Virus record (IMG/VR): IMGVR_UViG_3300023178_000017
Span: 32,001 to 96,000 of that record
Origin: a virus
DNA: 64,000 bases
Strand: one strand, 5' to 3'
Shown: positions 8,911-30,403 of the stretch, one piece after another
How positions within the stretch are numbered: the first letter of the stretch is position 1
How the letters are laid out: each line of letters begins with the position of its first letter
The notes under the pieces: model-generated
The model's database searches: none
Seen by the model: the letters and a program-made list of their open reading frames with translations, nothing else
Told to the model about the DNA's origin: nothing
Program-made: the position numbers and the translations under genes

Positions 8911-10041
8911 TTATGACGTAATTGGAGATGCTGGCCACTGTTGTGACAATACACCGTCCCAACGATTCACTGGTGTTCTACCTTGTGTAGCGTAAGTACT
9001 TGGTGATCTATGTTGATAGGTAAACGGAGTTCTACCTTGTCTAGAATATGTACTTGGTGATCTATGTTGATAGGTAAACGGAGTTTGACCTTGTCTTGCA
9101 TATGTCACAGGTTGCCTATGTTGATATGTACTTGGCGATTGTGTTATTCTAGGATCTCTGTAAGTACTTGGTGATCTGTGTTGATATGTGCTAGGTACAC
9201 GATATGCTCTAGGATCTCTGTAAGTACTTGGTGATCTATGGTTATACGTGCTAGGTACTCTATAACTTCTTGGATCACGATATGTAGATGGTGATCTGTG
9301 TTGATATGTGCTAGGTACACGATATGATCTTGGGTCTTGATATGTAGACGGCGATCTATGTTGATATGTGCTAGGTACACGATATGATCTAGGATCACGG
9401 TATGTAAATGGCGATCTATGGTTATATGTAAACGGTGACCTATGTTGATACGTAAACGGTGATCTATGTTGATAAGTCGAAGGTTGTCTAGCGCCTCTAA
9501 TATTAGGTTCTTGTGCTGATACAGGGTGTCTGTAACCTGCTGGTTGTTGTGCTGATCTAATATTAGGTTCTTGTGCTGATACAGGGTGTCTATAACCTGC
9601 TGGTTGTCTAGCATTACCAATTACTGGTTGTTGTGCTGATACAGGTGCTCTATATGCTGCTGGTTGTCTAGCATTTCTAATATTAGGTTCTTGTGCTGAT
9701 CTGATATTAGGTTCTTGACCGCTTCTAATATTAGGTTCTTGTGCTGATCTAATATTAGGTTGTTGACCATTCGCAATATAAGGCGACTGGAAAGTAAACG
9801 GTTGCCTTGCGTTATTAGGTTGTTGAGCATTTGCAATATAAGGCGACTGGAAAGTAAACGGTTGCCTTGCGTTATTAGGTTGTCTAGCATTTGCAATATA
9901 AGGTGACTGATATGTAAATGGATTCTGGAATGTAAATGGATTCTGGAATGTAAATGGATTCTGGAAAGTAAAAGGTGTCTGCACAGGAACAGAAGCCTGT
10001 GTAATACCTTGAGCATTTGCTGGATAAAAACCTGTTGCCAT
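8911..10041 (-). CDS. Pro-punctuated repeat protein B (putative antiparallel partner of 10053-11828)
   Basis: Residues 23-356 are 47 units of 6, 8 or 10 aa (PFTFQN, PYIANARQ, PNIRSAQE, PSTYQHRS, PSTYRD, PRSYRV etc.). Confidence 0.85.
   Translation of the reverse strand: MATGFYPANAQGITQASVPVQTPFTFQNPFTFQNPFTFQNPFTYQSPYIANARQPNNARQPFTFQSPYIANAQQPNNARQPFTFQSPYIANGQQPNIRSAQEPNIRSGQEPNIRSAQEPNIRNARQPAAYRAPVSAQQPVIGNARQPAGYRHPVSAQEPNIRSAQQPAGYRHPVSAQEPNIRGARQPSTYQHRSPFTYQHRSPFTYNHRSPFTYRDPRSYRVPSTYQHRSPSTYQDPRSYRVPSTYQHRSPSTYRDPRSYRVPSTYNHRSPSTYRDPRAYRVPSTYQHRSPSTYRDPRITQSPSTYQHRQPVTYARQGQTPFTYQHRSPSTYSRQGRTPFTYQHRSPSTYATQGRTPVNRWDGVLSQQWPASPITS
8974..9975 (-). repeat. Coding tandem repeats (18/24/54/60-nt periods) of protein B
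   Basis: Near-identical 60-nt blocks visible at 9781-9900 and 9181-9420. Confidence 0.9.
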
Positions 10042-10052
10042 TTTACTTTAGA

Positions 10053-11828
10053 TTACTTAGGTGATGGTTTAAAGAAGAAGAAGTTGTGAGCTAATACACC
10101 ATTTGCAAAGAAATTGTGATTGTCGCCAACGTTCTTCAAGTTATACACCTGTTGTGAATCTTTCTCCTCTATTTTAATTATTTCTAGTCCTATTTCTGTA
10201 CCTAGTACAGCATCTGTCATGGTCATCAAATGATCACCGACTGCGATTTCTGAATTTACAAATTCATCTCCACCTTCTTCTTTGTGGAATTCTTTAAATT
10301 TCTCTAAGTTGATAACACCCCATTCACCATTCATTGTTCTAAATGGATGTTCTGAAGTTGTTTCAAGTATTCTACCGTCTGATAAATGTATCTCATGTAT
10401 TGATACTTCTCTTGGTTGCATCAACTCTTCGACTACACCGATCTCTAATTTATTTGTCTCTTCGTTCCAAGTCATTACGTCTTGACCAACTTCTACTGTT
10501 TCAATTGGTACATGACTGCCATCGCCCAACCATATCATTGTGCCGGCAACAAAACATCCTTTGCCACCTCCAGGAATGTTACCAGGTATTGGACCAAACG
10601 GTTGATAGAAGTACACTGCTGGGAAGATAAATGGATATCTTGCTGTTTGTTGTGTAGTACTTGGTTGCCTTGCGTTATTTGGTTGCCTTGCGTTGTTTGG
10701 TTGCCTTGCGTTATTAGGTTGTCTAGCAGCAACTGGTTGTCTTGCCTGATACGTAAACGGCGCACGGAATGTAAATGGAGTCCTTGCGTTATTAGGTTGT
10801 CTTGCCTGATACGTAAACGGCGCACGGAATGTAAATGGAGTCCTTGCGTTATTAGGTTGTCTTGCCTGATACGTAAACGGCGATCTATGGTTATACGTAA
10901 ACGGTGATCTGTGGTTATATGTAAACGGTGATCTGTGGTTATACGTATACGGTGATCTATGTTGATACGTAAATGGCACCCTATATGATCTTGGATCACG
11001 GTATGTAAATGGTGATCTGTACGCATACGTAAACGGTATCTGATATGATCTTGGATCACGGTATGTAAATGGTGATCTATGTTGATACGTAAATGGCACC
11101 CTATATGATCTTGGGTCTCTATATGTAAATGGTGACCTATGTTGATACGTAAACGGTGTTTGTGCGTTTCTGATATTTGGTTCTTGTGCAGACCTAATAT
11201 TTGGTTCTTGACCGCTTCTAATATTAGGCTCTTGAGCAGCAACTGGATGTTGATAAGATGCTGGTGTTTGTCTATTTCTTATAAACGGAGTCTGAGCACT
11301 TACAGGGTGATTATACCCAGCTGGTGTTTGTGCGTTTCTGATAAACGGATTCTGTGCATTAACAGGATGTTGATAAGAAGCAGGTTGTTGTGCGTTTCTG
11401 ATAAACGGATTCTGTGCATTTACTGGATGTCTATAGAATGCTGGTGTTTGTCTATTTCTTATAAACGGATTCTGTGCATTAACAGGATGTCTATATGATA
11501 CAGAGTTTTGTGCATTCGCAATATAAGGCGATTGAGCATTCGCAATATAAGGATACGGCTGTTGTGCATCTCTTATAAATGGATTCTGTCTATTAGCAAT
11601 ATAAGGATACGGCTGTTGTGCATCTCTTATAAATGGATTCTGTCTATTAGCAATATAAGGATATGGTTGTTGTGTAGGTTGTTGACCTGATGCGTTATTC
11701 CACCCACTAGGAGTTTTAATGTAAATTTGATCTACATCTTTCCAAGTGTTTGAAGCAGTTTTAACCCATGCACCTTGGGTTGAATTCCAACCTGAGGGGG
11801 TTTTTACTTTCTGTGAGCCTGTCGCCAT
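10053..11828 (-). CDS. Pro-punctuated repeat protein A with C-terminal Hint (intein-like) domain
   Basis: N-terminal triple x(V/I)KT..xW motif; residues 55-388 are 47 repeat units; residues 425-582 CFVAGTMI...TSEHPF...VYNL...HNFFANGVLAHN. Confidence 0.88.
   Translation of the reverse strand: MATGSQKVKTPSGWNSTQGAWVKTASNTWKDVDQIYIKTPSGWNNASGQQPTQQPYPYIANRQNPFIRDAQQPYPYIANRQNPFIRDAQQPYPYIANAQSPYIANAQNSVSYRHPVNAQNPFIRNRQTPAFYRHPVNAQNPFIRNAQQPASYQHPVNAQNPFIRNAQTPAGYNHPVSAQTPFIRNRQTPASYQHPVAAQEPNIRSGQEPNIRSAQEPNIRNAQTPFTYQHRSPFTYRDPRSYRVPFTYQHRSPFTYRDPRSYQIPFTYAYRSPFTYRDPRSYRVPFTYQHRSPYTYNHRSPFTYNHRSPFTYNHRSPFTYQARQPNNARTPFTFRAPFTYQARQPNNARTPFTFRAPFTYQARQPVAARQPNNARQPNNARQPNNARQPSTTQQTARYPFIFPAVYFYQPFGPIPGNIPGGGKGCFVAGTMIWLGDGSHVPIETVEVGQDVMTWNEETNKLEIGVVEELMQPREVSIHEIHLSDGRILETTSEHPFRTMNGEWGVINLEKFKEFHKEEGGDEFVNSEIAVGDHLMTMTDAVLGTEIGLEIIKIEEKDSQQVYNLKNVGDNHNFFANGVLAHNFFFFKPSPK
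10083..10556 (-). other. Hint / bacterial intein-like domain without endonuclease
   Basis: Cys1 (G|CFVAGT), block B TxxH (TSEH), terminal His-Asn; +1 residue is Phe. Confidence 0.88.
10665..11666 (-). repeat. Coding tandem repeats of protein A
   Basis: Exact 60-nt duplication at 10741-10860; 54-nt repeats near 11540-11660; 24-nt and 18-nt arrays. Confidence 0.9.
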
Positions 11829-11861: not shown

Positions 11862-14159
11862 TTATGAATAAAGAATCCATAGATCACCAACTGCTCCGTC
11901 ACCTGAAGTAGGTGCAGAAGTTGATTGATATATGTTTCTCGCAACACCACCACTATTTGAAGCGTATGATGTTGAAATTTGTGATGCTCTAAAGTTTGCG
12001 TCTGTTAATGTTAACGAACCTGTAGAAGCACCAGTTGCAGTTGTTGTAGCAACTACAAACTCATCAGCACTTTCGTCCCAACCCATAAATGCGTTGTCGC
12101 CAGTTGAACCTCTTTCTAACACAAGACCAAGGTCATTTGAGTTAGCACCTGTGTTACCAGACCCTAATTCAATCAATGCATCACTGATTGTTGTATTTGT
12201 AGAATCTACAGTTGATGTAGTACCATTAACTGTTAGGTTACCAGATAATGTTAAGTTACCAAATTGTACGTTACTTGTTGTAGCAACTGCCTGACCAATA
12301 CTTATTTCACCTGAACTAATTGAGACACCAGTTCCTGCACTAATATGACTTCTAACTTCTGAAGCGCTTGGGCCAGTATATGTGATTACACCAGTAGATG
12401 AATTGTATGCTAAACTTCCATCACCACCTGAATCAGTAACAGAGATTGAACCTCTTGCATCTGAATCAGCATATTGTGTAATTGTTGTTGCAAGTGTTAA
12501 GGTACCATTTACATCATCGTATGTTGATGTGATGCCTGTACCTGCTGTTACTAAAGCATTTACTCTGTCATCAACTCTTTCGTCTGTGAAGTATAAGTTT
12601 GATGAACCTTCTGTTAACGAATCTGTATCTGGTAATAATGCATTAACTCTAGCATCTGCTCTAGCGTTTGTAAAGTAAAGGTTTGAACCTTCTGAAATAT
12701 GAGCAGTTGTTGAAGGTATTGTAATAGCACCTGTACTTGAATCATATGCACCTGCACCAGAGTTTGTACTTAGAGATGCTCTTGCTCTAGCATCTGTATA
12801 GAATAAGTTTGTTGAACCTTCTGTAATGTCATCTGAATCACCACTTAGTTCACTTAATGCATCTGCTGTATCTACTTGTGCATCAACATAAGTTTTGACT
12901 GCTAACTGAGAAGGTACTAAAGTATCTGAAGCACTACCAAAATTAACATCTGTATCGATTGCATTTTGAACTCTAGCGTCTGCTCTTGCATTTGTAAAGT
13001 ATAAGTTTGTAGAGCCTTCTGTTATTTCATCTGTATTGTCTTTACTTGCGACTTGTGAATCTACATATGCTTTAACTGATTGTTGAGAAGGTATTCTTGT
13101 TTCACTATTAGACACCATATTATCTTCATCGATAAGAGCTGCTGTGATTCTAGCATCTGCTCTAGCGTCAGTGAAATATAAGTTTGAACCTTCTGCTAAA
13201 TCACCAGTGTCATGGTTAGCAATACTAGTAACTGTACCAGTTACGTTACCAGTTAAGTTTCCTTCGAATGTTCCTGCAACAAAAGTTTCTGAACCGACTG
13301 TCCATTTATCGTTGGTCTCATCCCATAAGAATGTTTTTGCAGTTGAACTACCTCTAGTTACACTCAAACCAGCATCTTCTGTTGGTGAACCTGAAGTAAA
13401 GTTACTGTTTAATGCGATTGTGTTGTCTGCAAGGTTAATTGTCTCTGAGTTTACAGTTGTTGTTGTACCTGAAACTGTTAGTGAACCTGAGATTGTAACA
13501 TCATCGTTAAGTGAAATAACACCATTTCCGTTACCACTCAATACTAAGTTAGTATCAGCTGATCTGGACACGATTTGATCAACTGCAATATTGTTACTAA
13601 ATGTGATGTTGTTTCCTGCACTGTTGGTAATATTGTTACCGTCTTCGATTTGAACTGGACCTTTAAGTGCAATAACACCTGATCCTGTTGCATCTAACTC
13701 TAAATCACCAGAACCACTTGTCTGTATAGACATGTTTTGGTTAGAGTCAGCACTAAAGACGATTGTACCTGAGTCATCTGAAATAACCTGTTGTCCGTTA
13801 ACATATAAAGAACCAGGTCCAACGTATACGTCTTTCCATGTTCTACTTGATGAACCTAAGTCGTATGTGTTATCTGCGCTTGGTATGATGTTACCTGCAA
13901 ATGTACCACCACCTAAGTATGATAATACATCTGAGTCGCCGTATTGGGCTGCACCTGCGATTGTTAGTGTGTTAGCAGAATCATCGTATGTTAATGTGAT
14001 GCCTGTACCTGCTGTTAAAAGTTGAGCGACTCTATCGTCTACTGACTCATCTAATGCTGATGCTGAAATTGAACCAACGTATGATCCAGAAGAGCTAATA
14101 ACCTCTGTTCCACCGATTGACAGGCCGTTTTTAATATTAAAATTCTTTTCCCCTGCCAT
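11862..14159 (-). CDS. Tail fibre-like protein
   Basis: Gly/Ser/Thr/Asp-rich; five EG(S/T)xNLYFTxxR repeats; GNLTVNGT motifs; C-terminal APTSGDGAVGDLWILYS. Confidence 0.75.
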   Translation of the reverse strand: MAGEKNFNIKNGLSIGGTEVISSSGSYVGSISASALDESVDDRVAQLLTAGTGITLTYDDSANTLTIAGAAQYGDSDVLSYLGGGTFAGNIIPSADNTYDLGSSSRTWKDVYVGPGSLYVNGQQVISDDSGTIVFSADSNQNMSIQTSGSGDLELDATGSGVIALKGPVQIEDGNNITNSAGNNITFSNNIAVDQIVSRSADTNLVLSGNGNGVISLNDDVTISGSLTVSGTTTTVNSETINLADNTIALNSNFTSGSPTEDAGLSVTRGSSTAKTFLWDETNDKWTVGSETFVAGTFEGNLTGNVTGTVTSIANHDTGDLAEGSNLYFTDARADARITAALIDEDNMVSNSETRIPSQQSVKAYVDSQVASKDNTDEITEGSTNLYFTNARADARVQNAIDTDVNFGSASDTLVPSQLAVKTYVDAQVDTADALSELSGDSDDITEGSTNLFYTDARARASLSTNSGAGAYDSSTGAITIPSTTAHISEGSNLYFTNARADARVNALLPDTDSLTEGSSNLYFTDERVDDRVNALVTAGTGITSTYDDVNGTLTLATTITQYADSDARGSISVTDSGGDGSLAYNSSTGVITYTGPSASEVRSHISAGTGVSISSGEISIGQAVATTSNVQFGNLTLSGNLTVNGTTSTVDSTNTTISDALIELGSGNTGANSNDLGLVLERGSTGDNAFMGWDESADEFVVATTTATGASTGSLTLTDANFRASQISTSYASNSGGVARNIYQSTSAPTSGDGAVGDLWILYS

Positions 14160-18585: not shown

Positions 18586-18921
18586 TTAACTCCTAGTTAC
18601 ACCTGGCGTTATAATAGCTTGTCCTTCGACAACTCTACTAGTTTGACCACCAGAACTTGTTATGTTTAAGTCATACAGATATCTGCCTGGATTTAGAGCA
18701 GTTGTTTGTGTATCTGTTAAAGACAAAGTGACCTGACCTGAAGCCTCTGAAATAGATGTAGAAAATGTTGCACTTACTGAAGAAGACGTATATGTTTTTC
18801 TCATTTGTGCAGCTGCTGAATAACCTGATAGGTCTAAAACTGAACCATCAGAGTTTGTTACATCTACTGTAATGCTGAAGTCTGAACCTTGATCTATGTA
18901 AAGATTTGCTATAATTGCCAT
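18586..18921 (-). CDS. Virion structural protein, BppU-N-like adaptor
   Basis: NLYIDQGSDF...DLSGYSAAAQMRK...LSLT..QT..L.PGRYLYD...RVVEG...TPGVT. Confidence 0.7.
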   Translation of the reverse strand: MAIIANLYIDQGSDFSITVDVTNSDGSVLDLSGYSAAAQMRKTYTSSSVSATFSTSISEASGQVTLSLTDTQTTALNPGRYLYDLNITSSGGQTSRVVEGQAIITPGVTRS

Positions 18922-18938: not shown

Positions 18939-19868
18939 CTAATTATTTAATTGGGAATATGGGACTTTTGTATGTATTTTTTCTACTGTAGTTGGATCAG
19001 TTTTTACGTATGCTTCTTCTAATTGTTTTACAGTACCGTCTGCATCTTTAACATAAACTTGTTTAACTTCTGCTACAGGACCTATAGGTCTTCTGCTAGA
19101 ATATGTTATCTGATATGTAAATGGTGATCTATGTTGATATGTAGTTTGTACAACAATGTTACCACTTCTTGTATTCTGAGCATTTGCAATATATGGTGAA
19201 GGTTGAGAAGCAGAAACCCTATATGTATCTGGCGATCTATGTTGATACGTAAATGGTATTCTATGTTGATAGAACGATGGTGATCTATGTTGATACGTAA
19301 ATGGTGTTCTACCTGTTGTAGGATATGTTATAGGTTGCCTATGTTGATATGTTGTTGGTGTTCGCCCTGTTGCCTGATATGTTGAAGGCTGTCTTGCATC
19401 TCTAATAAATGGATTCTGTCTATCAACAGGATGTCTGTAAGTTGTAGGTGAAGGTTTATTTCTTATAAACGGATTCTGTTTATTTACAGGATGTCTGTAA
19501 TTAGCTGATATACGATAGCTACCAATTATCGGATTCTGTCTGTTAACAGGATGTTGATAAGCTGCTGGTTGACGTTGATTTGCAACATAAGGTGATGGTC
19601 TATTTCTAATAAACGGATTCTGTTGTTGTGCAATGTATGGTGATTGAAATGGACTTCTTGCGATAGCAGCTGTCTGTGCGTTTGCTATGTAAGGAATAGG
19701 CACTCTAGTATTAGCAACTGTCTGAGCGTTTGCTGATGCACGGGCATTAGCAATGTACGGCACAGGCGTAGTACCGTTAGTAGAATTTTGTCTATTAGCA
19801 ATATAAGGATACGGCTGTTGTCCTGGCGTTGCGTTTGAATTGCTATATGTTACTTGTACGGTTGGCAT
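18939..19868 (-). CDS. Pro-punctuated repeat protein D (putative antiparallel partner of 19870-21534)
   Basis: Residues 19-260 use the same unit vocabulary as proteins A/B; C-terminal VYVKD...AYVKT motifs. Confidence 0.85.
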   Translation of the reverse strand: MPTVQVTYSNSNATPGQQPYPYIANRQNSTNGTTPVPYIANARASANAQTVANTRVPIPYIANAQTAAIARSPFQSPYIAQQQNPFIRNRPSPYVANQRQPAAYQHPVNRQNPIIGSYRISANYRHPVNKQNPFIRNKPSPTTYRHPVDRQNPFIRDARQPSTYQATGRTPTTYQHRQPITYPTTGRTPFTYQHRSPSFYQHRIPFTYQHRSPDTYRVSASQPSPYIANAQNTRSGNIVVQTTYQHRSPFTYQITYSSRRPIGPVAEVKQVYVKDADGTVKQLEEAYVKTDPTTVEKIHTKVPYSQLNN

Positions 19869-19869
19869 T

Positions 19870-21534
19870 TTATACTATTATTGGCCCCCCACTACCTGCA
19901 TTATATGCTGCTCTTAAACTTATGGGGCTTGATGACCAAGAACCGTTGAAGTATGAAGCTATATGAAAATATGTATAATAAGTGTCTGTGCCTTTTGTTG
20001 CTTTTATTCCAAAATAAACATCATTTGATGTTAATTGTACTGGATTACCTGTGCTGTCGTATACACCCCACTTAAAAAATCTAGCAGTGCGAGTACCATT
20101 AAATCCACCCCTTGAAGTTGAACCAGACCAGAAATTATAATATTGGCCTCTGGTTTTTCCACAAACATGTGGATAAAATCCATAACTGTTTCCACCTCCT
20201 CCGTAACAATTTGTTTGAGCTTGAGTACCTGATACCGATTCACCACTTGCATAATATGCTACATCAAAATTCCAAGTATCGTCAATTATACCATTAGCAT
20301 TCAAATCGGTAATAGGCATATAAAATCTATAATAAAAACTCCAACCACTATTACTAAAAGAGTTATAATGACCATACGATATTCTAAAAGCCCCTAAAGG
20401 ATTTGTCTGAACAGTATTATTGTTAGCTGCAAAATCAAATTGCATATAACAACCACATTCGGTATGATTAAAACCAGGATTACCAGTTGCTAATTGAAGA
20501 GTATTCCAACTTGGTACACTAAACATAGAAGCAGTTCCTGAAGGTGGGTCAGAATTTATATAATTCGTACTACCACCAAAAGGATATACATCCCAAACAG
20601 GATTACTTATACCTGAGCCCCAAGGTTGAGGGTTCGGTTGATTAGCTAAAGTTGCACTTGTTGCTGTTGAACTTCCAGACAGTGCTGATTCGCCTACAAT
20701 ACCTTCATATGATGTTGGTACCTGAGCAGTCGATGGTGACTGATATATGTAAGGCGTTTGGCCTTGTGCTGAATAAGTCGAAGGCGATTGATAAATGTAA
20801 GGCGATGGTCTTTGCGCCTGATACGTAAACGGATTTTGATAAATCGATGGCACCCTATATGTTTGAGGACTTCTTTGTTGTGCTTGATAAGTTGAAGGCA
20901 CTCTATAAGGTACAGGTTGTTGATTTGACTCCTGTGCGTTTATATTTGCTGGTGACTGGTGTTGATACGTAGTAGGTTGTTGTGCCTGATATGTTACAGG
21001 ATTTCTGTAACTTCTTGGGTCACGATATGTACTAGGTGATCTATAAGCATAACTTACAGGATTTCTGTAACTTCTTGGGTCACGATATGTACTAGGTGAT
21101 TGATGTTGATACGCAACTATAACCTGTGCATTTCTTGGGTCTCTATAAGTTGAAGGACTTTGATGTTGATACGTAAACGGTGTTTGTGCGTTTGCAGGAT
21201 ACGGATACGGATTCTGTCTATTAGCAATATAAGGTGATTGTGCATCGGCCTGATAAGTATACGTTTGTTGTGCGTTTCTTATAAAAGGATTTTGTCTCGA
21301 TCTTATGTTAGGTTGCTGTGCGTTTCTTATAAAAGGATTTTGCCTATTAACAGGATTTCGATAAATTATTGGTTGTTGATTCTGATAAGTCGAAGGAGAC
21401 TGAAACGTATAAGGAACAATCGATGGTTGTTGTCTTATATTTGGTTCTTGAATGTTAGCAGGTTGCCTTGCTATGTAAGGTTGCTGAAAACTACCGCCAT
21501 TTAAATTGTGTTTAATGTAAATTTTATCTGCCAT
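19870..21534 (-). CDS. Pro-punctuated repeat protein C with C-terminal globular (putative receptor-binding) domain
   Basis: N-terminal KIYIKH; residues 19-260 repeats; about 280 aa aromatic/Gly/Asn-rich non-repetitive C-terminus. Confidence 0.85.
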   Translation of the reverse strand: MADKIYIKHNLNGGSFQQPYIARQPANIQEPNIRQQPSIVPYTFQSPSTYQNQQPIIYRNPVNRQNPFIRNAQQPNIRSRQNPFIRNAQQTYTYQADAQSPYIANRQNPYPYPANAQTPFTYQHQSPSTYRDPRNAQVIVAYQHQSPSTYRDPRSYRNPVSYAYRSPSTYRDPRSYRNPVTYQAQQPTTYQHQSPANINAQESNQQPVPYRVPSTYQAQQRSPQTYRVPSIYQNPFTYQAQRPSPYIYQSPSTYSAQGQTPYIYQSPSTAQVPTSYEGIVGESALSGSSTATSATLANQPNPQPWGSGISNPVWDVYPFGGSTNYINSDPPSGTASMFSVPSWNTLQLATGNPGFNHTECGCYMQFDFAANNNTVQTNPLGAFRISYGHYNSFSNSGWSFYYRFYMPITDLNANGIIDDTWNFDVAYYASGESVSGTQAQTNCYGGGGNSYGFYPHVCGKTRGQYYNFWSGSTSRGGFNGTRTARFFKWGVYDSTGNPVQLTSNDVYFGIKATKGTDTYYTYFHIASYFNGSWSSSPISLRAAYNAGSGGPIIV

Positions 21535-21535
21535 A

Positions 21536-23443
21536 TCATATCACAAACCATAAATGTCCAACTTCTTTACCTGTACCACTTGGTGTACCAGATAGTGAAG
21601 AAGCACTAACAACTTCATAATCTAACTCAACATCATCGCCGTCTAATTTAACACCGTTTGATGTGTTCACTGATAAAGTAGCAACACCATCTAATGAATC
21701 ACCTGAAGAACCTGCGTTATAAGATTTCGCAAGACCTGAACCAGCAGATATGACACTATTTACTCTATCATCTGTAAAGTATTTATTAGTTTGTTCTGAT
21801 ATAGAATCGGTACCTGTTGAGTTATCTGCAACTTGTAAATCACCATTAGAATCAAATACTAGTATTTGACCAGCAGATGCACTAGATGTACTACCTACAT
21901 CTGTTAAATCAGATATAGCAGAGTTCATTGTTGTGTTTATTGATACATTGCCTTTAGCAGTCTGTGTGACTGAACCTGTAACTGCACCAGTCAATGAAAA
22001 GTCTGAATTATCTAAAACTAAATCTAAAGTATTATCTGAGTCATCATAGGTAACTGAAAGACCTGATTCAGTGTTTGAACTAATCATTGTACCGACTGTG
22101 TCAGCAATTCTTTCTACAATGTCATCAACTACAAAACTAGAACCGTTGTACTTAAGAACACTATTAGTATTTGCGCCACTTGTATTTACATCTGAAAGAT
22201 CATCGATACTAGCAGCTGCGATTCTAGCGTCTGCTCTACCGTCTGTATAATAAAGATTAGAACTTCCTTCTGTTAAATCATCAGTGTCATGGTTTGATAA
22301 ACTTGAAACTGTACCTGTAAGATGTCCTGTTGATACATTTAAAACTGTTGTTGAACCGTCTGCTGTAATTGTAGATAATCTTGCAGTAGCATCGGTACCA
22401 TTTGTACCGTTATCGATGATTGTTTGACCACCACTTGATAGAACATCACCTTTTAGATTACCATTAAAAGTAGTTGCAGTCATGTCTGTTGCATGAATGT
22501 TCTGCCATTTTAGTATACTACTTCCAAGTTCGTGTGTGTTGTTAGCACTTGGTAAAACATCTGAGTCTATTGAACCTGTGAATGATATTGTATCACTAGA
22601 TGCGTTACCTAAATCGATGTTACAATTCAGTGATGATAATCCATTAACTGTTAAAGCGCCAGTAGTTGTAACTGTTGAGGCATTTAAATCACCGCCTGTA
22701 AGTGTTGCAGTTCCATCACTCAATGTACCCACGTTGACTGTTGCGCTAAAGTTTGCATTTACACCACCAGTAATACTACCTGAGTTGATACTCATGGTGC
22801 TATCAGTAATTGTAGGCGCAGTCATTACACCGCCTGTTGTGATTGTTATATCATCTTCTGCAAATGTTTTACCTGCAAGTTGAATGTTGAAACCAGTCTC
22901 TAATTCTGTTGTGTTATTTGTGTTTGAAGCATTAAGAATAACACCATTTGAGTTGTTGTTAAAGATTGAGTTTGTATCTGATAACTGCCAGTATGAAGCA
23001 CCTGTACTTGCTAATGCAGTACCTAAGTATGAACCTGTGTAAGAATATAGAACGAATCTATCGCCATTTGATAAACCAGAACCGTATGTAGCACCTTGTA
23101 AGTTAATTCTTCCATAACTACCATCTGAATTTTGGCTAGTGATCTGATAGTCTATACCTTCTATTAAGTGAGAACCGTTGACAAAGACCTGAATTCGGTC
23201 TTGTACAAATTTCATCACATTGTTAAACTGATCAGCGCCTTCGAAATGCGTTTCACCACCAGTTGCAATATACACATACTCTTGGAAGTAAAATGCTTTA
23301 TCTTCTACACTATTAACAGCGTCAACTAAAGTTGCTTGAGCAGTAGTTCTAAGACCACTAATATCACCCACGTCATTAGCCAACACATTATATTGTTGTC
23401 TAAAATTTTCTATAGTACTGAAACTGTCTACTGTTTTAGCCAT
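21536..23443 (-). CDS. Tail fibre-like protein
   Basis: LTEGSSNLYYTDGRADAR repeat; N-terminal DVGDISGL.T....LVDAVN; C-terminal PSGTGKEVGHLWFVI similar to the 11862-14159 C-terminus. Confidence 0.72.
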   Translation of the reverse strand: MAKTVDSFSTIENFRQQYNVLANDVGDISGLRTTAQATLVDAVNSVEDKAFYFQEYVYIATGGETHFEGADQFNNVMKFVQDRIQVFVNGSHLIEGIDYQITSQNSDGSYGRINLQGATYGSGLSNGDRFVLYSYTGSYLGTALASTGASYWQLSDTNSIFNNNSNGVILNASNTNNTTELETGFNIQLAGKTFAEDDITITTGGVMTAPTITDSTMSINSGSITGGVNANFSATVNVGTLSDGTATLTGGDLNASTVTTTGALTVNGLSSLNCNIDLGNASSDTISFTGSIDSDVLPSANNTHELGSSILKWQNIHATDMTATTFNGNLKGDVLSSGGQTIIDNGTNGTDATARLSTITADGSTTVLNVSTGHLTGTVSSLSNHDTDDLTEGSSNLYYTDGRADARIAAASIDDLSDVNTSGANTNSVLKYNGSSFVVDDIVERIADTVGTMISSNTESGLSVTYDDSDNTLDLVLDNSDFSLTGAVTGSVTQTAKGNVSINTTMNSAISDLTDVGSTSSASAGQILVFDSNGDLQVADNSTGTDSISEQTNKYFTDDRVNSVISAGSGLAKSYNAGSSGDSLDGVATLSVNTSNGVKLDGDDVELDYEVVSASSLSGTPSGTGKEVGHLWFVI

Positions 23444-23654
23444 TTATTTTCTCTTCTATCTTTCTAAGAAGTTCCTTAACTTCGGTTACTTCTTGTCTTA
23501 AACTATTTATTTCCTTTTTCTGAGAAGCAATGATTTGTCTTCTTCTCATTACCAATTTAAACTGTTCAACATCTGTATTGATAATTGCTTGTGAACTTTC
23601 TTCTCTAATTAGATTTGAATGTCCTTCAACCTTTATCATGCTAATGCTATACAT
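23436..23654 (-). CDS. Small coiled-coil hypothetical protein
   Basis: [18 protein letters not shown]...[16 protein letters not shown]; overlaps both neighbours; true start may be Met6 (23639). Confidence 0.7.
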
Positions 23655-26600
23655 CTAAGACCAGAAATTATTGGTACTTGAGATGTGTTTGTAGCCTGTC
23701 CTACAATCTTAATTATAAAACCTGTAAATTCAGGTAAGTTGTCTGCTGTGTATTCGTATTCTTTAAAGTTTCTAGCGTCTTGATCAATAGCTGTGTCAGG
23801 ACCACCAGTTGAGTTAAAGAATTCAAATCCTAAATCATCTACTGGTGTATCTTCATCGTTTTTGATGAGTTTGTATAAAACTTTAATGTCTGAGTTAGGT
23901 GGTCTAAAGTTATCTGATAAAACTTTCAATGATGTAGCAGGATTCTTTAAACTTACCAATCTTGTTGTGTATACCATTGCGTTGTTATCGCCATCTGGTT
24001 CTGTTGATGGTACGTAAACTTCACCATCTGATAGATCGGCAGCAGAATCAATATCATTAATTCTGTTCATAATACCTAGACAACCAATTGTACCTGTATC
24101 AATGTAAGGTGATACGTTTGGATTTGATGATCTCATTTGTAGTAATAATCTAAATGATCTCTGGTTACCCATTCTCTCTAATTCGTTGAGGGGTGATGCA
24201 ACAACACTTGGTCTACTGAAGTAAACGTTATCGTTTAATTTAATAAAGTCATTTGCAGTTCTTCTTACATATTCAGTATCTAAGTTTGAATCTTCTGGTG
24301 AACCCATACCTGTTCTATTAATACTTGAGAATATTTGAGTATTATTAAATGTTATAGAAGGTATCATTGTATGAATTGCATCATAATAGATGTTTCTTGT
24401 ACTTCTAACTTGACTACCACCGCCATCTACACTTTGAGTTGCAACAAAACTTGTGCCGCCTTCTAAGTCATAAGATGACATTACAGATGTTCTAGGTAGA
24501 ACATTAAATGAGTCTATACTATAATCTTGTAGACTCTCGTGTGTACCGTTAATAGCTGCAACTGGAATACCACCCAATGTGTTTTCAACATTGGTGACAC
24601 TTACTGTAAATGTTTGACTGTCGATTGTGACTGTAATAGTGTCGTTCACTGCGTAGTCACTACCTGGATCAGTAATCTTAATTGAGTTTACTGCATCTAA
24701 ATCTCCAGCGTCTACAACTACTTTGACTTTAAGACCTGTACCTGTACCACCTGTTACAACAGCATCATTACTTCCACCAGTCTCGTATGTCTGTGCTGTT
24801 ACGGCAGCACTAATAGCACTTGGTGTGCCAATCTCTACTACGCCATCTTCTTTATCGCCTTTCACGCCTGCTATTGTTACGTGTGAAGTTGTTTCGTACA
24901 TACCGTGTGAGTAGTTTAATATCTTAACATAACTTTGACCAGCAAATGTTTGAACTGGATTCTCTTGTAGTTTTACATCTCCGATAAAATCGTTTTCAAA
25001 CACAACTTCTGCAACTTTTGAGGTATCGAATTGTGCAATCTTAAGATTGAACTTGAGATCGTCTGTTTGTTCTGCTGTCCATGTTGATGCGTTTTGTGAT
25101 AAGAACAATGAACCAGCATATGGTTGTCCTGAAATTGTTTCACCAGTAATTAAATCGTTTTCGCCCATTCTGGATATGAAACATTCGTATTCGTTTGAGT
25201 TTGATAAAACTACGAAACAGTATTCTTTACCTTTCTCTAGGTATACAGGCGAATCAAATGTAAATGTTGTAGCACTTGAACCGTCTTCTGAAATATTAAC
25301 TTCGTTTGGATTCTTAGATACTGTTGAGAATGGTAATACTAACTGACCTGGATAACCATTCACCATGTTTCTAACTTGTACTGACACTGGTAGTGCATCG
25401 TCTTTAGTTCTAAAGAATAGATCAACTGAAGACAACATCATGCCACCATCCATATCTACTAAGAATGATTCTGCTAATGGATCGACCCACTCTGTCTCAC
25501 GCAATTCTCTCTCATCGAATATTCTAGGAATTCTAGGATCAACGTCCCAAAAATCTCTAGGGTCATCAATAGGCGGTGGTGACGGTATCGGCGTACTTGT
25601 TGGTGTCGGCGTTGGTGTCGGTGTCGGTGTAGGCGACGGTGTAGGCGCAGGAGTTGTTGTCGGCGCTGGCGTCGGCGTAGGTGTCGGTGTAGGACTTGGT
25701 GTAGGCTCTGGAGTCGGTGTTGGACTCGGTATAGGTGCCTCAGTAGGTTCTGGTGTAGGTGTAGGTGCTGGAGTTGCAGGTGGTTCTGGACTTGGCTCAG
25801 GTGGTGTACCTGTACCAGGTGTTACGTTTAATAACTCACCTCTTCTTACTATTTGTCTCTCAGCAGATAGCCTTTCAATAACTACTCTACCATTCCTTGT
25901 TGATACAATTTCAGTTTGTGAAGCTTGTAATAAACCTTGTGCTTGATAGATTGCATTACCTCGTGATGCTGGGTTAGAAAGGTTATTTGAACTTGATGTA
26001 ATAACCATTTCTCTAGCACCAGTTGGGAATCTCTGGAATCTATCGTTAGGTAAACTGAATGTTGCTCTTAATCTACCGTTACCATCTGTTTTTACTATTT
26101 GATCGTATGATGTACCACCATCTTTACTGTACAGTGTACTGAATGGTTTTACATATGAGTTTACATCGATACCATCAAAGAATACGTAATGGTTTGTGTT
26201 TGGTTTTAAGTTAACTGCATCTATTTCAATGTCTCTTGGTCTACAGAATGGTACAATTGTGACACTAACAATTCTATCGTTACGTGTTTCAACTAACTCT
26301 TCTACAACCGATGTTCTAACACCTGTTCTGATCTGAGACTCAGGTGTTTCTGTTACATTTCTTGTAACAGTAGTATTAGGTGTATATTCACCACCTTGTG
26401 AAGGATCACCGTTCCAAGCTGCTGGAACACTTGATAATGTCTCTGTCTCTACAACTGTAGGTTCACCTACCCATGTAGTCTGCCATGCGTTCCAAACAGT
26501 GCCTAATGCGTTTTCGTTCTCTGCTAATATTGCATCGAAGTTGCCTTCTCTGTTAACTCTTACTTCTGGTAATTGTTCTGTGTCTTGCCAGATGTCTGTC

Positions 26601-29600
26601 TCTGGACTTAGTTTAACGTGACCAATAAATGCAAACACAGCGTATGGGTTAACATTTAATGACCTAGATGCCTTATTTTGATTAACAAATGATCTTTCTG
26701 TATATGGTAATGTGATAATATCACCAGACTTCTTATAGTTACGTGACAATGCTGAGTTAGCAATGATATCAAAGAACTGAGTATGGTGTTTAGGTCTTAA
26801 TTGACCTAGTTTTGTATCGATAGCACATTCATAGTCTGGATGTGAAACATCACCAATCTTATGACCTCTAAAGTTATCTACTAAGAAGCCTGATTTATAT
26901 CTGTCAAATCCGTCTGCATCTAAAATTTGTTTTGATTGTGTATCTTTTTCTAATAAAGATAGTGCTGTAATTCTTTCAATGTTTGTAAGTCTTTGGTTTA
27001 TTCTACCAATATCTTTCATCGTATATCTACGATGATCAAATTGTTTTAAATTGATTTCTTTTAAGTTTGATGTGTAAGCAGGTATGAACAATTCGAACAT
27101 TTCAATTGCATCATCTAACTGATTTGGTTTTTGAGGACTAATATCAGGATAACCAATAGAAACTTCAAACTTACCATTTCTAGTTAAGAATACTTTATCA
27201 ATTCTAGGTACATAGAAATCTATATCTGCTGTCACTGAAGATGTAGGCATTGGACATGAAATTGTTCCATTGTCGACATCGTTAAACACCCTTGATGTGT
27301 ATACAAATGGTGCAGCTGTTACTTTTGTATTATCTGATAAGTTTAATGGATCGTTCTGATCATAAGCATTTGTATCATCATCTTGGAAATTAGTGCCAGG
27401 TAAAAAGTCTGTTGATGGTCTAAAGTCTACTGCATCTGATAATTCGAACTTACCGTCTGGTTCAAAACCACCTAAGTCTACTTTATTTGGTGAGTAATTT
27501 GGTATATCTTTGTACTCAACATCAGCACTGTTATAAGAATTTACTGAGTAGTAATCTCCTGTACCACCTCTACTAAACATGTCAAAGATAACAGTCACAG
27601 GATTGTTAGGTGCTGATCTACCTTGTTTTAAAACTAGTTTTGAGAAGTCATAATAACCATCTCTTTGGCCATTGTCTAAGAAATAGTTGTTCTTAATGTT
27701 TGGTGAACCTGCACTTAAGTTTGATAGTACAGCGATACCTGAACTTGTTTGGCCAACAATTGTCTCACCGTCAATGAAAGGTATATCATTTAAGTATACA
27801 AAGTATGATGTGTTTGTATCACCACCCCAATTGATCAATAATGCTCTTGCTGTTGATGATTGACCTACAATCTCTTCTTTTAATGCAAAAGAACCTGAAC
27901 TTATTGTTACAGTTGCGTTTGGTGGTGTTGCCTGACTATTTGAACCTGAAGTTGTGCCTGGAACTGCCTCTAAAACTGCATGTATTTTATAGACATCTGG
28001 TACACATAGATTCAATTCTTTGTGATCGTATGCAAGACCATAGAAAGGTTTATCACTATTAGATGATCTAAATGAAACTGATCTGAATTTTTCTAAAGCT
28101 TTTGACTTTACAGCAGGTGCTGTTCTCTTAACAGTATAAGTTGCTAATATTTGAGCACCTGATCCTGAATCACTGAATGTAACATCTAATGAAGTACCTG
28201 GTGTACCAAAAGTTACATCGTCTGCGACTAACACGTCACCTAATGCTACGACATCACCAGTTCCGTTTAGTGATAATTTAGTAAATTGATATTTGTCATC
28301 ACCAAAGTCTGAGAATGTTTCGTCTGACTCTTTTGTCAAAGTGATTGTACCATTTGACATTGAGAACAGTCCTTGTTTTCTGACTTCTACTGTTCCTGTT
28401 GGTGTTACATCTGAAACGTAATCTCTAGGCCATGCAAATATATTTGATGTCTGATCTTGGTCTGCAAGTTTTGCTCTTTTTCTGATAACTGCTACTTGTG
28501 TTGCCGCTGAAGGTGTCACTGCACCACCAGCTGTTGTAACTACATTTAACGATGTATCGTTAGTAACAACTGAAACTCTATGTTCTGTACCATTAACAAC
28601 GATATGATCACCAACTTTTACTTCTTTAGTAAACTGTGAACCAACACCTTGTAATTCATTTGTTGAGCCATTAAATGTACCTAAACCAGATATTACTGAT
28701 ATATCATCTAATACTACATCGGCACTAAAGTCTAGTCCTACGCTAGCAGGTGAAACTTGACCGACTGAGTGAGATTGACTTACATTAAAGACCTGAACAC
28801 TAGTTGATGCTACTGCTGATGCAGTTCCCTTACCTCTAACTGATACATTATTACCTGATACAAATTGTCCTACTACATCATGTAGATAAATGTTATTACT
28901 ATCGACATATGCAACAATACCTGTTGCGCCTGTAATATCGTCTGTTAGTTTATCACCGTTAGCATATAATGTTGAGGTTGCTGTTGTAACTCCAACTTTA
29001 GTAAACATTTTAATATCAAATAGATATAATTGATATTCATCTGTAGCTGACTCATCAAAATGTCTAACTCTTGCAAAACCAATATTCTCTGCACTACCAC
29101 TTAATGCTGATGCAGAAGATTTAGGTAGACTGTAAAGTTTGATTGGTTCGAAAGCATTTGTTGAAGCTGAATCACCAATTTCTGGCATTCCATAAATGTT
29201 GTTGATTTTTAATTTATTACCTATTCTAACTGGTGTTGATGCGTTAGATAGTTCTGCTGTTGTTCTTGCTTTATTAATTGTTAGGTTTGATGTACCTGCT
29301 TTTTCAATTTCGTATCCTCTAACATAAGCTTTACCAGCAGATATCTGCATGATAAACTTCTCTTCTTGTCCGCCTTCTGCTATTGGATAAAACCCTTTGT
29401 TATCTGAAGTTTTTAAATGTTCTCTGAAATTACTAGTAAATGGTCTTACAACAAAATCGCCATTGGCATCAAAGGTTCTTCGTGCCATAGTATTTTCTAT
29501 TTCAGAATAGATTGGTCTATTGATTGATAGTTCAATGATACCATTGTTAACTCTTGCTAATTCAATGAAGTTAACACTTGTAGTATCTGTTAGTGCTACT

Positions 29601-30403
29601 TTAGATAATGTAAGATCAAATTTTAATCTATCGGCACCAGGCGCATTATCGTTTGATGAGCCTTGTGCATTGTCTAAGAGACTATTATCTTCTGTTGATG
29701 ATATGATAGTTTCATTGATAGAAAGACCAACTCTATATGAAGGATTACCTGCATATTTTTCTAATACGATAAGTTGTTTGTCTACCTTTACAAAGAAACC
29801 TCTTGTAAAAACTACACCTTCTGAAATTTCTGCAATTGAAGCACGACCAGTTGGTGTTGATGATTGTGATAATGTTTTAAAGTAGTTGTTGTTTGTTGCT
29901 ACAGCAGAAGTTGATCCAAAACCGTCAGCTGAGAATTCTACTTCTCTTATTTCTTCTGAACCTTTGAATATAAAAGAACCATCGCTGTCTGTACCTTGTG
30001 ATAATGCTTTTACAAATAGTGTTATAGAATCATCTTCAGTTTCAGCAGTTGATGAAATAACTTTTGCTACTACACCTGTTGTTAAACCTTGAATGAGTTT
30101 GCCGTGAAAACTAGTTCTATAAGATTCTACGTTTAGATCGCCGTTTGCATTTGGATTTGAATTTTGTACTTTGACAAAATAGATGTCCATGTCAATGTTT
30201 GACTGAGCACCTGAAACAATAGAACCTTCTTTAAAGAAATGATCACCAAATTTCTCTACCTGATCTTGTAGAATAGATTGAGTTTGAGTTAACTCTCTCG
30301 CTTGAATTGGTCGACCAGCACGATACAGAACTTTATGAAATTTCTTGTCTGCATCGTAATCATCGTAATATGGTGTAATATTTAGATCCGTTTTCTCTGA
30401 CAT
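23636..30403 (-). CDS. Large virion structural protein (VrlC / DUF4815-like)
   Basis: [35 protein letters not shown]; APGADR; LARRTFD..GDF; [11 protein letters not shown]; DPLAESF. Confidence 0.85.
25570..25812 (-). repeat. Pro-Thr/Ser low-complexity linker (about 80 aa)
   Basis: [33 protein letters not shown]...PIPSPPP. Confidence 0.9.

What the first reader, a model, noticed from the sequence alone, without database searches (positions are those of the whole stretch)
18939..21534. A second, diverged gene pair obeys the same antiparallel code with a different barcode
SEEN: protein C (19870-21534, residues 19-260) read N->C aligns without gaps to protein D (18939-19868, residues 260->19) over 242 aa and about 33 units. 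Examples: PVNRQN/PDTYRV, PFIRNAQQ/PFTYQHRS, PNIRSRQN/PSFYQHRI, PYIANRQN/PTTYQHRQ, PYPYPANAQT/PSTYQATGRT, PFTYQHQS/PFIRDARQ, PSTYRD/PVDRQN, PRSYRN/PAAYQH, PVTYQAQQ/PYVANQRQ, PSTYSAQGQT/PYPYIANRQN. Some boundaries near the ends lack Pro and were placed by me. The unit order differs from pair A/B, and the repeats are more degenerate. Gene layout is the same as pair 1: fibre gene, long chain with tip domain, short chain. INFERENCE: independent replication of the rule, with distinct barcodes keeping A:B and C:D from cross-pairing in one infected cell.
Basis: partly seen in the sequence, partly recalled or inferred. Interest (0 to 1): 0.9.

Follow-up and report, generated by a model that had tools for sequence, protein, structure and literature searches.

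The report
Mirror-coded two-chain phage fibre stalk
Two neighbouring genes of an uncultured marine T4-like phage encode proline-punctuated repeat chains whose unit order is the exact mirror image of each other, a pattern kept by matched insertions and deletions and by natural single-chain fusions in dozens of related phages, which points to an undescribed, sequence-addressed antiparallel protein pairing that builds a fibre stalk.

Summary
A pairing matrix trained only on A/B, or only on 48 pairs from other contigs, recovers that register. Parallel, shuffled and cross-pair (A/D, C/B) alignments do not.

C/D is not peculiar to this window. IMG/VR marine viral contigs hold about 68 distinct A/B-type and 14 C/D-type pairs in the same three-gene layout, and 24 loci carry both types. 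In the A/B type, indels are compensated by same-size indels at mirrored sites. In the C/D type, array lengths match (r=0.91). More than ten contigs encode C and D fused in one chain whose two halves are complementary in the same geometry.

All 69 Pro-Pro spacings in C and D are even.

Best reading: an antiparallel, in-register two-chain stalk carrying a variable tip. The structure itself is not shown, because the structure predictions gave nothing usable. The "barcode prevents cross-pairing" idea is only partly supported. No family, solved structure or paper matches. This scan has notes on it only from this same genome.

The parts
19870..21534 (-). Gene C, the long chain (554 aa): N-terminal anchor motif, repeat array, C-terminal tip domain
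   Evidence: ORF. No Pfam or PHROG family. Relatives with the same N-terminus and variable tips are aligned.
21481..21534 (-). C residues 1-18: conserved N-terminal anchor motif (M-[AS]-D-x-I-[YF]-[IV]-[NK]...QQ)
   Evidence: M1, D3, I5 and Q18 are invariant in 13 C-type chains. The same N-terminus heads the fused single-chain forms.
20698..21480 (-). C residues 19-279: Pro-punctuated repeat array (38 Pro, units of 2-18 aa, all spacings even)
   Evidence: Pairs antiparallel with D 260->19.
21082..21354 (-). C residues 61-151: strongest in-register complementary segment (faces D 128-218)
   Evidence: score 67 over 91 residues at offset -31 with the externally trained matrix.
19873..20697 (-). 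C residues 280-554: aromatic-rich tip domain of unknown fold. This position is hypervariable among relatives (some carry a Hint-like domain instead)
   Evidence: Alignment: only L080 has a similar tip. The AF2 single-sequence model is unusable (pLDDT 34.5).
18939..19868 (-). Gene D, the short chain (309 aa): mirrored repeat array plus C-terminal anchor domain
   Evidence: ORF. No Pfam, no PDB relative. D-type relatives are aligned.
19083..19829 (-). D residues 14-262: repeat array (33 Pro, all 32 spacings even), the mirror image of the C array
18942..19082 (-). D residues 263-309: conserved C-terminal anchor domain with two V-Y-V-[KN]-type motifs and a K-I-H-x-x-x-P tail. It overhangs the N-terminus of C by about 31 aa
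   Evidence: Conserved in 13 D-type chains. Overhang is 31-35 aa in split pairs and 36-41 aa in fused forms.
21536..23443 (-). Upstream fibre gene (635 aa) ending ...G-H-L-W-F-V-I. It always precedes C-type genes
   Evidence: Its length correlates with D-type length (rho 0.86, n=9).
18586..18921 (-). 111-aa gene downstream of D, conserved at every C/D-type locus; LtfC-like beta-sandwich (below Pfam cut-off)
   Evidence: 110-111 aa, M-A-I-[IL]-A-N... at all loci. (PF23926, E=4.6e-5, 24.4 bits against a 27-bit cut-off).
8911..11828 (-). Paralogous pair A (10053-11828, 591 aa, C-terminal Hint-like domain) and B (8911-10041, 376 aa), used as the training set
   Evidence: 47 of about 50 Pro boundaries coincide at offset 34. 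(PF14890, 33.3 bits, below cut-off).

Best explanation
C and D are the two strands of one elongated structure in the tail-fibre module of a marine T4-like myophage.

Their repeat arrays (about 245-260 residues each) lie side by side, antiparallel and in a single fixed register. Each unit of one chain faces a complementary unit of the other:
- aromatic 'x-T-Y' units face 'x-I-R/x-I-A...Q' units;
- 'x-T-Y-R-D' faces 'V-x-A-Q-x';
- 10-mers face 10-mers.

The N-terminus of C and the C-terminal domain of D meet at one end and form the anchor, probably on the fibre encoded just upstream. The variable tip domain of C sits at the far end, next to the N-terminus of D. In some relatives the two chains are one polypeptide that folds back on itself, with the tip region as the connecting loop.

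Shown by sequence comparison: the mirror order, the matched array lengths, the compensated indels (A/B type), the position-specific covariation (A/B type) and the fusions.

Inferred:
- The pairing is a beta-ladder-like ribbon. The grounds are strict two-residue periodicity of Pro and covariation between same-parity positions.
- The ribbon is a virion stalk rather than a transient template.
- The aperiodic unit order sets the register and helps cognate choice.
For: (1) Register and code
- unique antiparallel register; A/B-trained matrix z=7.1.
- an externally trained matrix recovers it; gapped z=8.6; parallel orientation scores 13 against 67.
- the type code holds beyond the length code (19/5000).

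(2) Conservation
- 12 of 14 other C/D-type pairs have their best antiparallel offset at -32 to -35.
- 9 of those 14 recover it by matrix with z 3.3-5.5.
- Composition-defined long-chain array length tracks short-chain array length (r=0.91, n=15, range 188-293 aa).

(3) A/B-type pairs
- In about 40 of 45 distinct pairs, 90-97% of short-chain Pro boundaries coincide at offset 34-35.
- In 2063 unit pairs the partner class is 86-100% predictable for the main classes.
- 47 of 88 long-chain indels between relatives have a same-size indel at the mirrored site of the short chain, against 6 under a parallel rule. Indel order is reversed in 10 comparisons and the same in 0.

(4) Rosetta-stone fusions
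- At least 12 distinct single ORFs of 445-611 aa carry the C-type N-terminus and the D-type C-terminus.
- Their N-half array is antiparallel-complementary to the C-half array, with z up to 19.6 and the same terminal overhang of 36-41 aa.

(5) Beta-type periodicity
- Even Pro spacings: 37/37 in C, 32/32 in D, and 773/788 in other C/D-type pairs. Elsewhere in the same proteins about half are even.

(6) Covariation (A/B type)
- alpha2 couples with beta6/8 and alpha6 with beta2/4, but not the reverse. The strongest diagonal lies one residue off the unit-boundary register. That places both Pro in the same class of ladder pair.

(7) Context
- The genes sit in a conserved fibre module of a T4-like tail/baseplate region.

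(8) No DNA-level cause
- Nucleotide complementarity is 0.23-0.33, and the longest reverse-complement match is 10-11 nt.
Against: - There is no physical or structural evidence of any kind; the conformation is inferred from periodicity only.
- The compensated-indel and covariation evidence comes from the better-preserved A/B type. For the C/D type the indel comparison was too noisy to read.
- 5 of 14 C/D-type pairs give no gapless register with the A/B-derived matrix.
- The window's C/D arrays are degenerate. Only a 91-residue core scores positively in one run, and with the external matrix the full-length gapless z is only 2.8.
- Uncompensated indels of 18-44 aa exist between 99-100% identical contigs. 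They are either short-read assembly errors in repeats or tolerated mismatches.
- Most sequences are short-read metagenome assemblies of repeats.
- Short-chain length also correlates with the length of the upstream fibre, which a three-partner model would explain equally well.
Confidence: 0.7

Rival explanations
1. D is a dedicated template or chaperone. It pairs antiparallel with the array of C during folding or assembly, sets its length and register, and is then released or degraded, so it is not part of the virion.
For: - Small genes just downstream of fibre genes are often fibre chaperones. This is established knowledge; an example is the Alteromonas phage V22 paper listed, PMC7289586.
- D has no tip domain.
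- All the pairing evidence fits this reading equally well.
Against: - The fused forms keep both arrays in one chain permanently.
- D carries its own conserved 47-residue terminal domain with the same motif type as the N-terminus of C, which suggests a joint anchor.
- No chaperone family is matched.
Confidence: 0.15
2. C and D do not touch each other mainly. Both lie in opposite polarity on a third periodic partner, the shaft of the upstream fibre, and the mirror order reflects that common template.
For: - Short-chain length correlates with the length of the upstream fibre protein (rho 0.69, n=51 for A/B type; 0.86, n=9 for C/D type).
- The three-gene layout is invariant.
Against: - Facing units are complementary rather than alike, and the relation is symmetric whichever chain carries which class.
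- Covariation is between specific facing positions of the two chains.
- The upstream fibres show no matching unit pattern and no even-Pro rule.
- The length correlation is not corrected for shared ancestry.
Confidence: 0.1
3. There is no pairing. The mirror order is chance in low-complexity sequence, or a by-product of DNA-level events (inverted duplication, sense-antisense coding) or of misassembled repeats.
For: - The arrays are built from few unit types, so local matches arise easily. Cross pairs reach z 3.3-3.9 in gapped local alignment.
- The contigs are short-read assemblies.
Against: - Unit-order shuffles never reach the observed scores.
- Parallel alignments fail.
- Compensated, order-reversed indels occur across dozens of independent contigs.
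- There is no nucleotide complementarity. An inversion would not give mirror-ordered peptides in any case.
Confidence: 0.02
4. Each chain pairs with itself, as an antiparallel homodimer or a hairpin, rather than with its neighbour.
For: A and B each have a 160-residue self-complementary core (scores 139 and 113).
Against: - For C and D the self scores are at background: C/C 42 (z 1.6) and D/D 33 (z 1.0), against C/D 67 (z 8.6).
- A/B scores 289 over 349 residues, against 139 for A/A.
- Indels are compensated between chains.
Confidence: 0.03

Closest known systems
SMC/Rad50-type antiparallel fold-back arms (own knowledge)
   Same: Two long segments run antiparallel in register. N- and C-terminal ends meet at the base, and a separate domain sits at the apex. 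The fused C-D forms have exactly this topology.
   Different: Those arms are alpha-helical coiled coils with heptads. Here Pro occurs every 2-10 residues with strict two-residue phase, which excludes helices. There is no sequence relation, and this system also occurs as two separate chains.
Bovine ultralong CDR H3 'stalk and knob' (PMC5994613, listed)
   Same: An antiparallel two-strand beta-ribbon stalk holds a small variable binding domain away from the body. Aromatic residues alternate along the stalk.
   Different: That stalk is about 10-12 residues per strand within one chain. Here each strand is 190-560 residues, is often on a separate polypeptide, and has a unit code and matched indels. 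The beta-ribbon conformation here is inferred, not seen.
Triple-stranded beta-helix of T4 gp5 and related fibre shafts with octapeptide repeats (PMC4576200, listed)
   Same: A phage tail protein whose shaft is built from short repeats of about 8 residues in extended conformation.
   Different: gp5 is a parallel homotrimer with a Gly-containing V-x-G repeat of uniform length. Here two different chains are mirror-ordered, units of 6, 8 and 10 residues are mixed aperiodically, and the punctuation is Pro. No Pfam or PDB match.
Tail-fibre gene followed by its chaperone or assembly gene (T4 gp37/gp38, Tfa proteins; PMC7289586, listed)
   Same: A small gene lies directly downstream of a fibre-type gene with a variable tip and is presumably needed for its assembly.
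   Different: Known chaperones are globular and act on the tip or trimerisation domain. D is a full-length mirror image of its partner's shaft and matches no chaperone family.
Spectrin alpha/beta antiparallel heterodimer; designed orthogonal coiled-coil zippers; collagen heterotrimer register codes (own knowledge)
   Same: Partner choice and register of long repetitive chains are set by the order of complementary repeats.
   Different: The folds and repeat sizes are different. None is encoded as mirror-ordered 6-10-residue units, and none shows mirrored compensated indels between two genes.

Membership tests
Mirror-repeat fibre pair, C/D type (family defined here from IMG/VR contigs) | Long and short repeat genes adjacent on the same strand, downstream of a fibre gene ending ...G-H-L-W-F-V-I and upstream of a 110-aa LtfC-like gene | tested here: met
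   Window layout; the same layout at 13 other loci.
Mirror-repeat fibre pair, C/D type (family defined here from IMG/VR contigs) | Long chain starts M-[AS]-D-x-I-[YF]-[IV]-[NK]. Short chain ends with two V-Y-V-N/K motifs and K-I-H-x-x-x-P | tested here: met
   Alignments A1 and A2.
Mirror-repeat fibre pair, C/D type (family defined here from IMG/VR contigs) | Antiparallel gapless register in which the short chain's C-terminus overhangs by about 31-35 aa, and unit classes are complementary | tested here: met
   Offset -31; relatives at -32 to -35.
Mirror-repeat fibre pair, C/D type (family defined here from IMG/VR contigs) | All Pro in one two-residue phase along each array | tested here: met
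   37/37 and 32/32 even spacings.
Phage tail-fibre assembly chaperone (Tfa / gp38-like), considered for D | Match to a chaperone family profile | tested here: not met
   No Pfam family for D at E<=0.01.
Phage tail-fibre assembly chaperone (Tfa / gp38-like), considered for D | Acts on the fibre during assembly and is absent from, or only at the tip of, the virion | not testable with these tools
   Needs virion proteomics or a structure.
Triple-stranded beta-helix / gp5-like octapeptide shaft | Uniform 8-residue V-x-G-type repeat in a parallel homotrimer | tested here: not met
   Units of 2-24 residues, Pro-punctuated, almost no Gly, mirror-ordered between two chains. No PDB sequence relative.
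Collagen-like fibre | G-X-Y triplets | tested here: not met
   No Gly periodicity; the period is 2, not 3.
Hint / intein-like autoprocessing domain (present in A and in some C-type relatives) | Profile match with an N-terminal Cys and a C-terminal H-N | tested here: not met
   No hit for C. A has PF14890 at 33.3 bits (cut-off 35.8), with G-C-F... and ...A-H-N present. L083 and L122 C-type tips end ...V-H-N-K or similar.
Antiparallel coiled coil (SMC/Rad50-like) | Heptad repeats compatible with long alpha-helices | tested here: not met
   Pro every 2-10 residues throughout both arrays.

The most novel reading that the evidence does not exclude
Marine T4-like phages use a natural, sequence-addressable antiparallel beta-type 'zipper'. 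It has two complementary unit classes in three lengths, strung in an aperiodic order that fixes partner and register residue by residue. Length is freely tunable by matched insertions, from about 190 to 560 residues per strand. It is usable as two chains or as one fold-back chain, and two mutually selective pairs work in the same infected cell. That would be a new class of fibrous protein architecture and a ready-made programmable scaffold, comparable in logic to coiled-coil zipper sets.
Probability: 0.4. Interest if true: 0.95.

Novelty: categorically new. Interest (0 to 1): 0.86.

Why it matters
If the pairing is physical, this is a fibrous protein principle with no described counterpart. 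Two chains, or two halves of one chain, find each other and their exact register through a mirror-ordered code of 6-, 8- and 10-residue units. Evolution maintains the code by matched insertions and deletions in two genes.

- It would explain how an abundant group of uncultured marine myophages builds fibres of very different lengths with exchangeable tips.
- It gives a rare natural case of compensatory indel evolution between proteins.
- It offers a simple, testable rule set for designing register-specific beta-type assemblies.
- It shows that current structure predictors are blind to this class.

Tried and rejected
Tools that gave nothing
Gene context was taken from IMG/VR through the search for related loci instead.
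- Complex prediction on C(1-285)+D with alignments gave no verdict (ipSAE 0.04 and 0.03; controls not run). It is not used as evidence either way.
- AF2 of the C tip domain from a single sequence: mean pLDDT 34.5, unusable, so no fold search was run.
- AF2 of a natural fused C-D chain with a 12-row alignment: mean pLDDT 29.7. Only the terminal motifs came out as strands and the arrays as coil, so there is no model.
- tblastn of C, A and D against 50,697 phage records found no relative; A gave two spurious low-complexity hits.
- A search of the fused form's loop region in the 5.8-billion-protein set found nothing.
- PDB by sequence: nothing.
- ESM Atlas: only unnamed viral clusters, and structural hits below TM 0.5.
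- Six literature searches, including one for the motifs themselves, found no description.
- One relative turned up in 185,579 prokaryote genomes, on a 7.8-kb contig of a Verrucomicrobiales MAG that is probably viral.

Ideas rejected
- Sense-antisense or inverted-repeat origin.
- Self-pairing of C or D.

Analyses that were too noisy or partly failed
- Indel comparison within the C/D type was unreadable at 60-70% identity, and my truncation forced the net lengths. It is not used.
- Gapless scoring fails for 5 of 14 C/D-type pairs.
- A first version of the array-end estimate failed on three chains and was corrected.
Full report
WHAT IS THERE

The window is part of a 105-kb IMG/VR virus record, estimated 58% complete. 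Its genes for baseplate wedge, tail tube cap, sheath stabiliser and a DUF4815 giant protein mark a T4-like myophage. It is only about 20-23% identical to cyanomyophage and pelagimyophage proteins.

Four repeat proteins lie on the minus strand inside a run of fibre genes:
- A: 10053-11828, 591 aa
- B: 8911-10041, 376 aa
- C: 19870-21534, 554 aa
- D: 18939-19868, 309 aa

C stops 1 nt before D starts. Cutting the proteins at each Pro gives units of mostly 6, 8 and 10 residues.

CHECKING THE OBSERVATION

At that offset 23 Pro boundaries coincide, against 15 for the next offset and 18 for the best parallel one. Every quoted unit pair is present. For comparison, A against reversed B gives 47 coincident boundaries out of about 50, with the runner-up at 33.

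- A log-odds matrix from A/B alone gives C/D a single outstanding register: -7 against -101 for the second best. None of 1000 unit-order shuffles reach it (z=7.1). A/D and C/B have no full-length register.
- A matrix trained on 48 pairs from other contigs, with the window left out, finds the same register (z=2.8 gapless; z=8.6 with gaps). The parallel orientation scores 13 against 67.
- Permuting D blocks only among blocks of equal length still beats the observed score in just 19 of 5000 trials. Both the length order and the unit-type order are therefore mirrored.
- Every one of the 37 Pro-Pro spacings in C and the 32 in D is even. Elsewhere in the same proteins about half are even.

THE FAMILY

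B has over 400 relatives in marine metagenomes, none named. No relative appears in 50,697 phage records, the PDB or Pfam. IMG/VR scans with B, D and a fused form gave 179 loci.

Almost every locus with enough flank has a long and a short repeat gene side by side. There are two types.

A/B type:
- The upstream fibre ends ...G-D-[LM]-W-[IV]-L-Y-S.
- The short chain ends ...Q-Q-W-P-x-x-P-[IV]-x-S.
- A protein of about 525 aa follows.

C/D type:
- The upstream fibre ends ...G-H-L-W-F-V-I.
- The long chain starts M-S-D-E-I-Y-[IV]-N.
- The short chain ends with two V-Y-V-N motifs and K-I-H-Q-S-V-P.
- A 110-aa LtfC-like gene follows.

Twenty-four loci carry both types, 5.8-8.5 kb apart, as in the window. 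C/D is therefore an old paralogous module, not a local duplication.

COMPARATIVE EVIDENCE FOR PAIRING

(a) In about 40 of 45 distinct A/B-type pairs, 90-97% of the short chain's Pro boundaries coincide with the long chain's at a constant offset of 34-35. Examples are 61/65, 70/73 and 71/74. This holds even though array length ranges from about 200 to 560 residues.

(b) In 2063 unit pairs from 48 pairs, the partner class is highly predictable:
- Y-I-A units face x-T-Y units in 94%.
- x-I-R units face x-T-Y-x-H-R units in 92%.
- N-N-A units face x-T-F units in 100%.

(c) Between relatives 80-98% identical, 47 of 88 indels in the long-chain array have a same-size indel in the short chain at the mirrored place, against 6 under a parallel rule. 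When several unequal indels occur, their order is reversed between the chains in 10 comparisons and never the same. One example is L126 against L144: +8 and +12 in the long chain, +12 and +8 in the short chain, with r+s=236 for both.

(d) For the C/D type:
- 12 of 14 other pairs have their best offset at -32 to -35.
- 9 recover it with the A/B-derived matrix (z 3.3-5.5).
- A composition-based estimate of where the long chain's array ends tracks the short chain's array length (r=0.91, n=15).

(e) Fusions. At least twelve distinct ORFs of 445-611 aa start like C and end like D.
- In L156, L157 and L111 the N-terminal array (about residues 20-160) is antiparallel-complementary to the C-terminal array (about 290-430), with z of 17.7-19.6.
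- In 7 of 8 tested the register leaves a 36-41-aa C-terminal overhang, as in the split pairs.
- Joining the tip end of C to the N-terminus of D is possible only in the antiparallel arrangement, so this is Rosetta-stone evidence for that arrangement.

(f) The relation exists only at protein level. Nucleotide complementarity in the register is 0.23-0.33, and the longest reverse-complement match is 10-11 nt.

WHAT KIND OF PAIRING

The strict two-residue phase of Pro points to an extended, beta-type backbone. It excludes helices, and it excludes collagen or PPII, which have period 3.

Within 8-mer and 6-mer unit pairs, covariation is position-specific. Position 2 of the aromatic unit couples with positions 6 and 8 of its partner. 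Position 6 couples with positions 2 and 4. There is no coupling the other way round. The variable position 5 of either unit couples with nothing.

In that register the Pro of both chains fall in the same class of ladder pair, as a regular antiparallel ladder needs.

This part is inference. It rests on A/B-type data and is not corrected for shared ancestry. Whether single ribbons or bundles of them form the fibre is open.

THE BARCODE IDEA

Only cognate chains have a full-length register, both in the window and in L080 and L102, where cognate scores are 94-271 and cross scores 32-59.

However, C/B and A/D share complementary stretches of 33-83 residues, and A and B have 160-residue self-complementary cores. 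The two types also differ in their anchor domains, and each pair is translated from adjacent genes.

So the aperiodic order may serve register setting as much as partner choice. The claim that it prevents cross-pairing is plausible but not shown.

STRUCTURE PREDICTION

The complex job gave no verdict. Neither AF2 model was usable.

VERDICT

The best reading is a two-chain (in some relatives one-chain) antiparallel, register-coded stalk that anchors at the C N-terminus and D C-terminus and displays a variable tip. No known family, solved structure or paper in the searched library describes it. Earlier notes of this scan concern only this same genome.

Noticed in passing
L156:3001-4464, L157:149-1612, L111:963-2435, L158:3001-4833 and others: Natural single-chain versions of the C/D module: one ORF with the C-type N-terminus, two mutually complementary arrays separated by a 120-140-aa non-repeat middle, and the D-type C-terminus.
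   Followed up: yes
window 10053-10580 (C-terminal ~175 aa of A): A carries a Hint/intein-like domain (PF14890, 33.3 bits, just under cut-off) that starts with Cys right after the array and ends A-H-N followed by F. Many relatives have it above cut-off. In the antiparallel geometry its scissile bond lies next to the N-terminus of B, so self-cleavage or even ligation at the stalk tip is conceivable.
   Followed up: partly
window 7277-8881: The 534-aa gene just downstream of B is conserved (about 500-550 aa) at nearly all A/B-type loci. It has a weak glycosyltransferase family 8 match (E=6.8e-5, below cut-off) and belongs to phrog_28018 of unknown function. It might modify the Thr/Tyr-rich arrays.
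   Followed up: partly
window 18586-18921: The 111-aa gene downstream of D is conserved at every C/D-type locus. It has an LtfC-like beta-sandwich match below cut-off (PF23926, E=4.6e-5).
   Followed up: partly
window 11862-14159 and 21536-23443; loci: The length of the upstream fibre protein correlates with the length of the short chain (rho 0.69, n=51; 0.86, n=9). The stalk and the fibre may therefore be length-matched. The correlation is not corrected for phylogeny.
   Followed up: partly
L010 vs L028; L012 vs L068; L075 vs L077; L120 vs L135: Between 99-100% identical contigs, one chain differs by 18-44 aa while its partner is unchanged. These are either repeat misassembly or standing uncompensated variation.
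   Followed up: no
window 10941-11420 (A 137-296) and 9220-9699 (B 115-274): A and B each contain a 160-residue stretch that is antiparallel-complementary to itself, so the A/B duplex has a pseudo-dyad and homodimers are conceivable.
   Followed up: partly
L140:7874-9347, L141:8971-10444, L142:1265-2738: Here a 217-aa chain with the B-type C-terminus comes first and a 269-aa repeat chain second, the reverse of the usual gene order.
   Followed up: no
L180 (NYWG01000077.1, 7.8-kb contig of a Verrucomicrobiales MAG): This is the only relative of B among 185,579 prokaryote genomes. It is probably a viral contig binned with the MAG, so it is at most a weak host hint.
   Followed up: no
window 23636-30403: A 2255-aa DUF4815 protein with a long Pro/Thr/Ser/Glu-rich linker in its middle (roughly nt 25450-25760, estimated) lies directly upstream of the C/D fibre module.
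   Followed up: no
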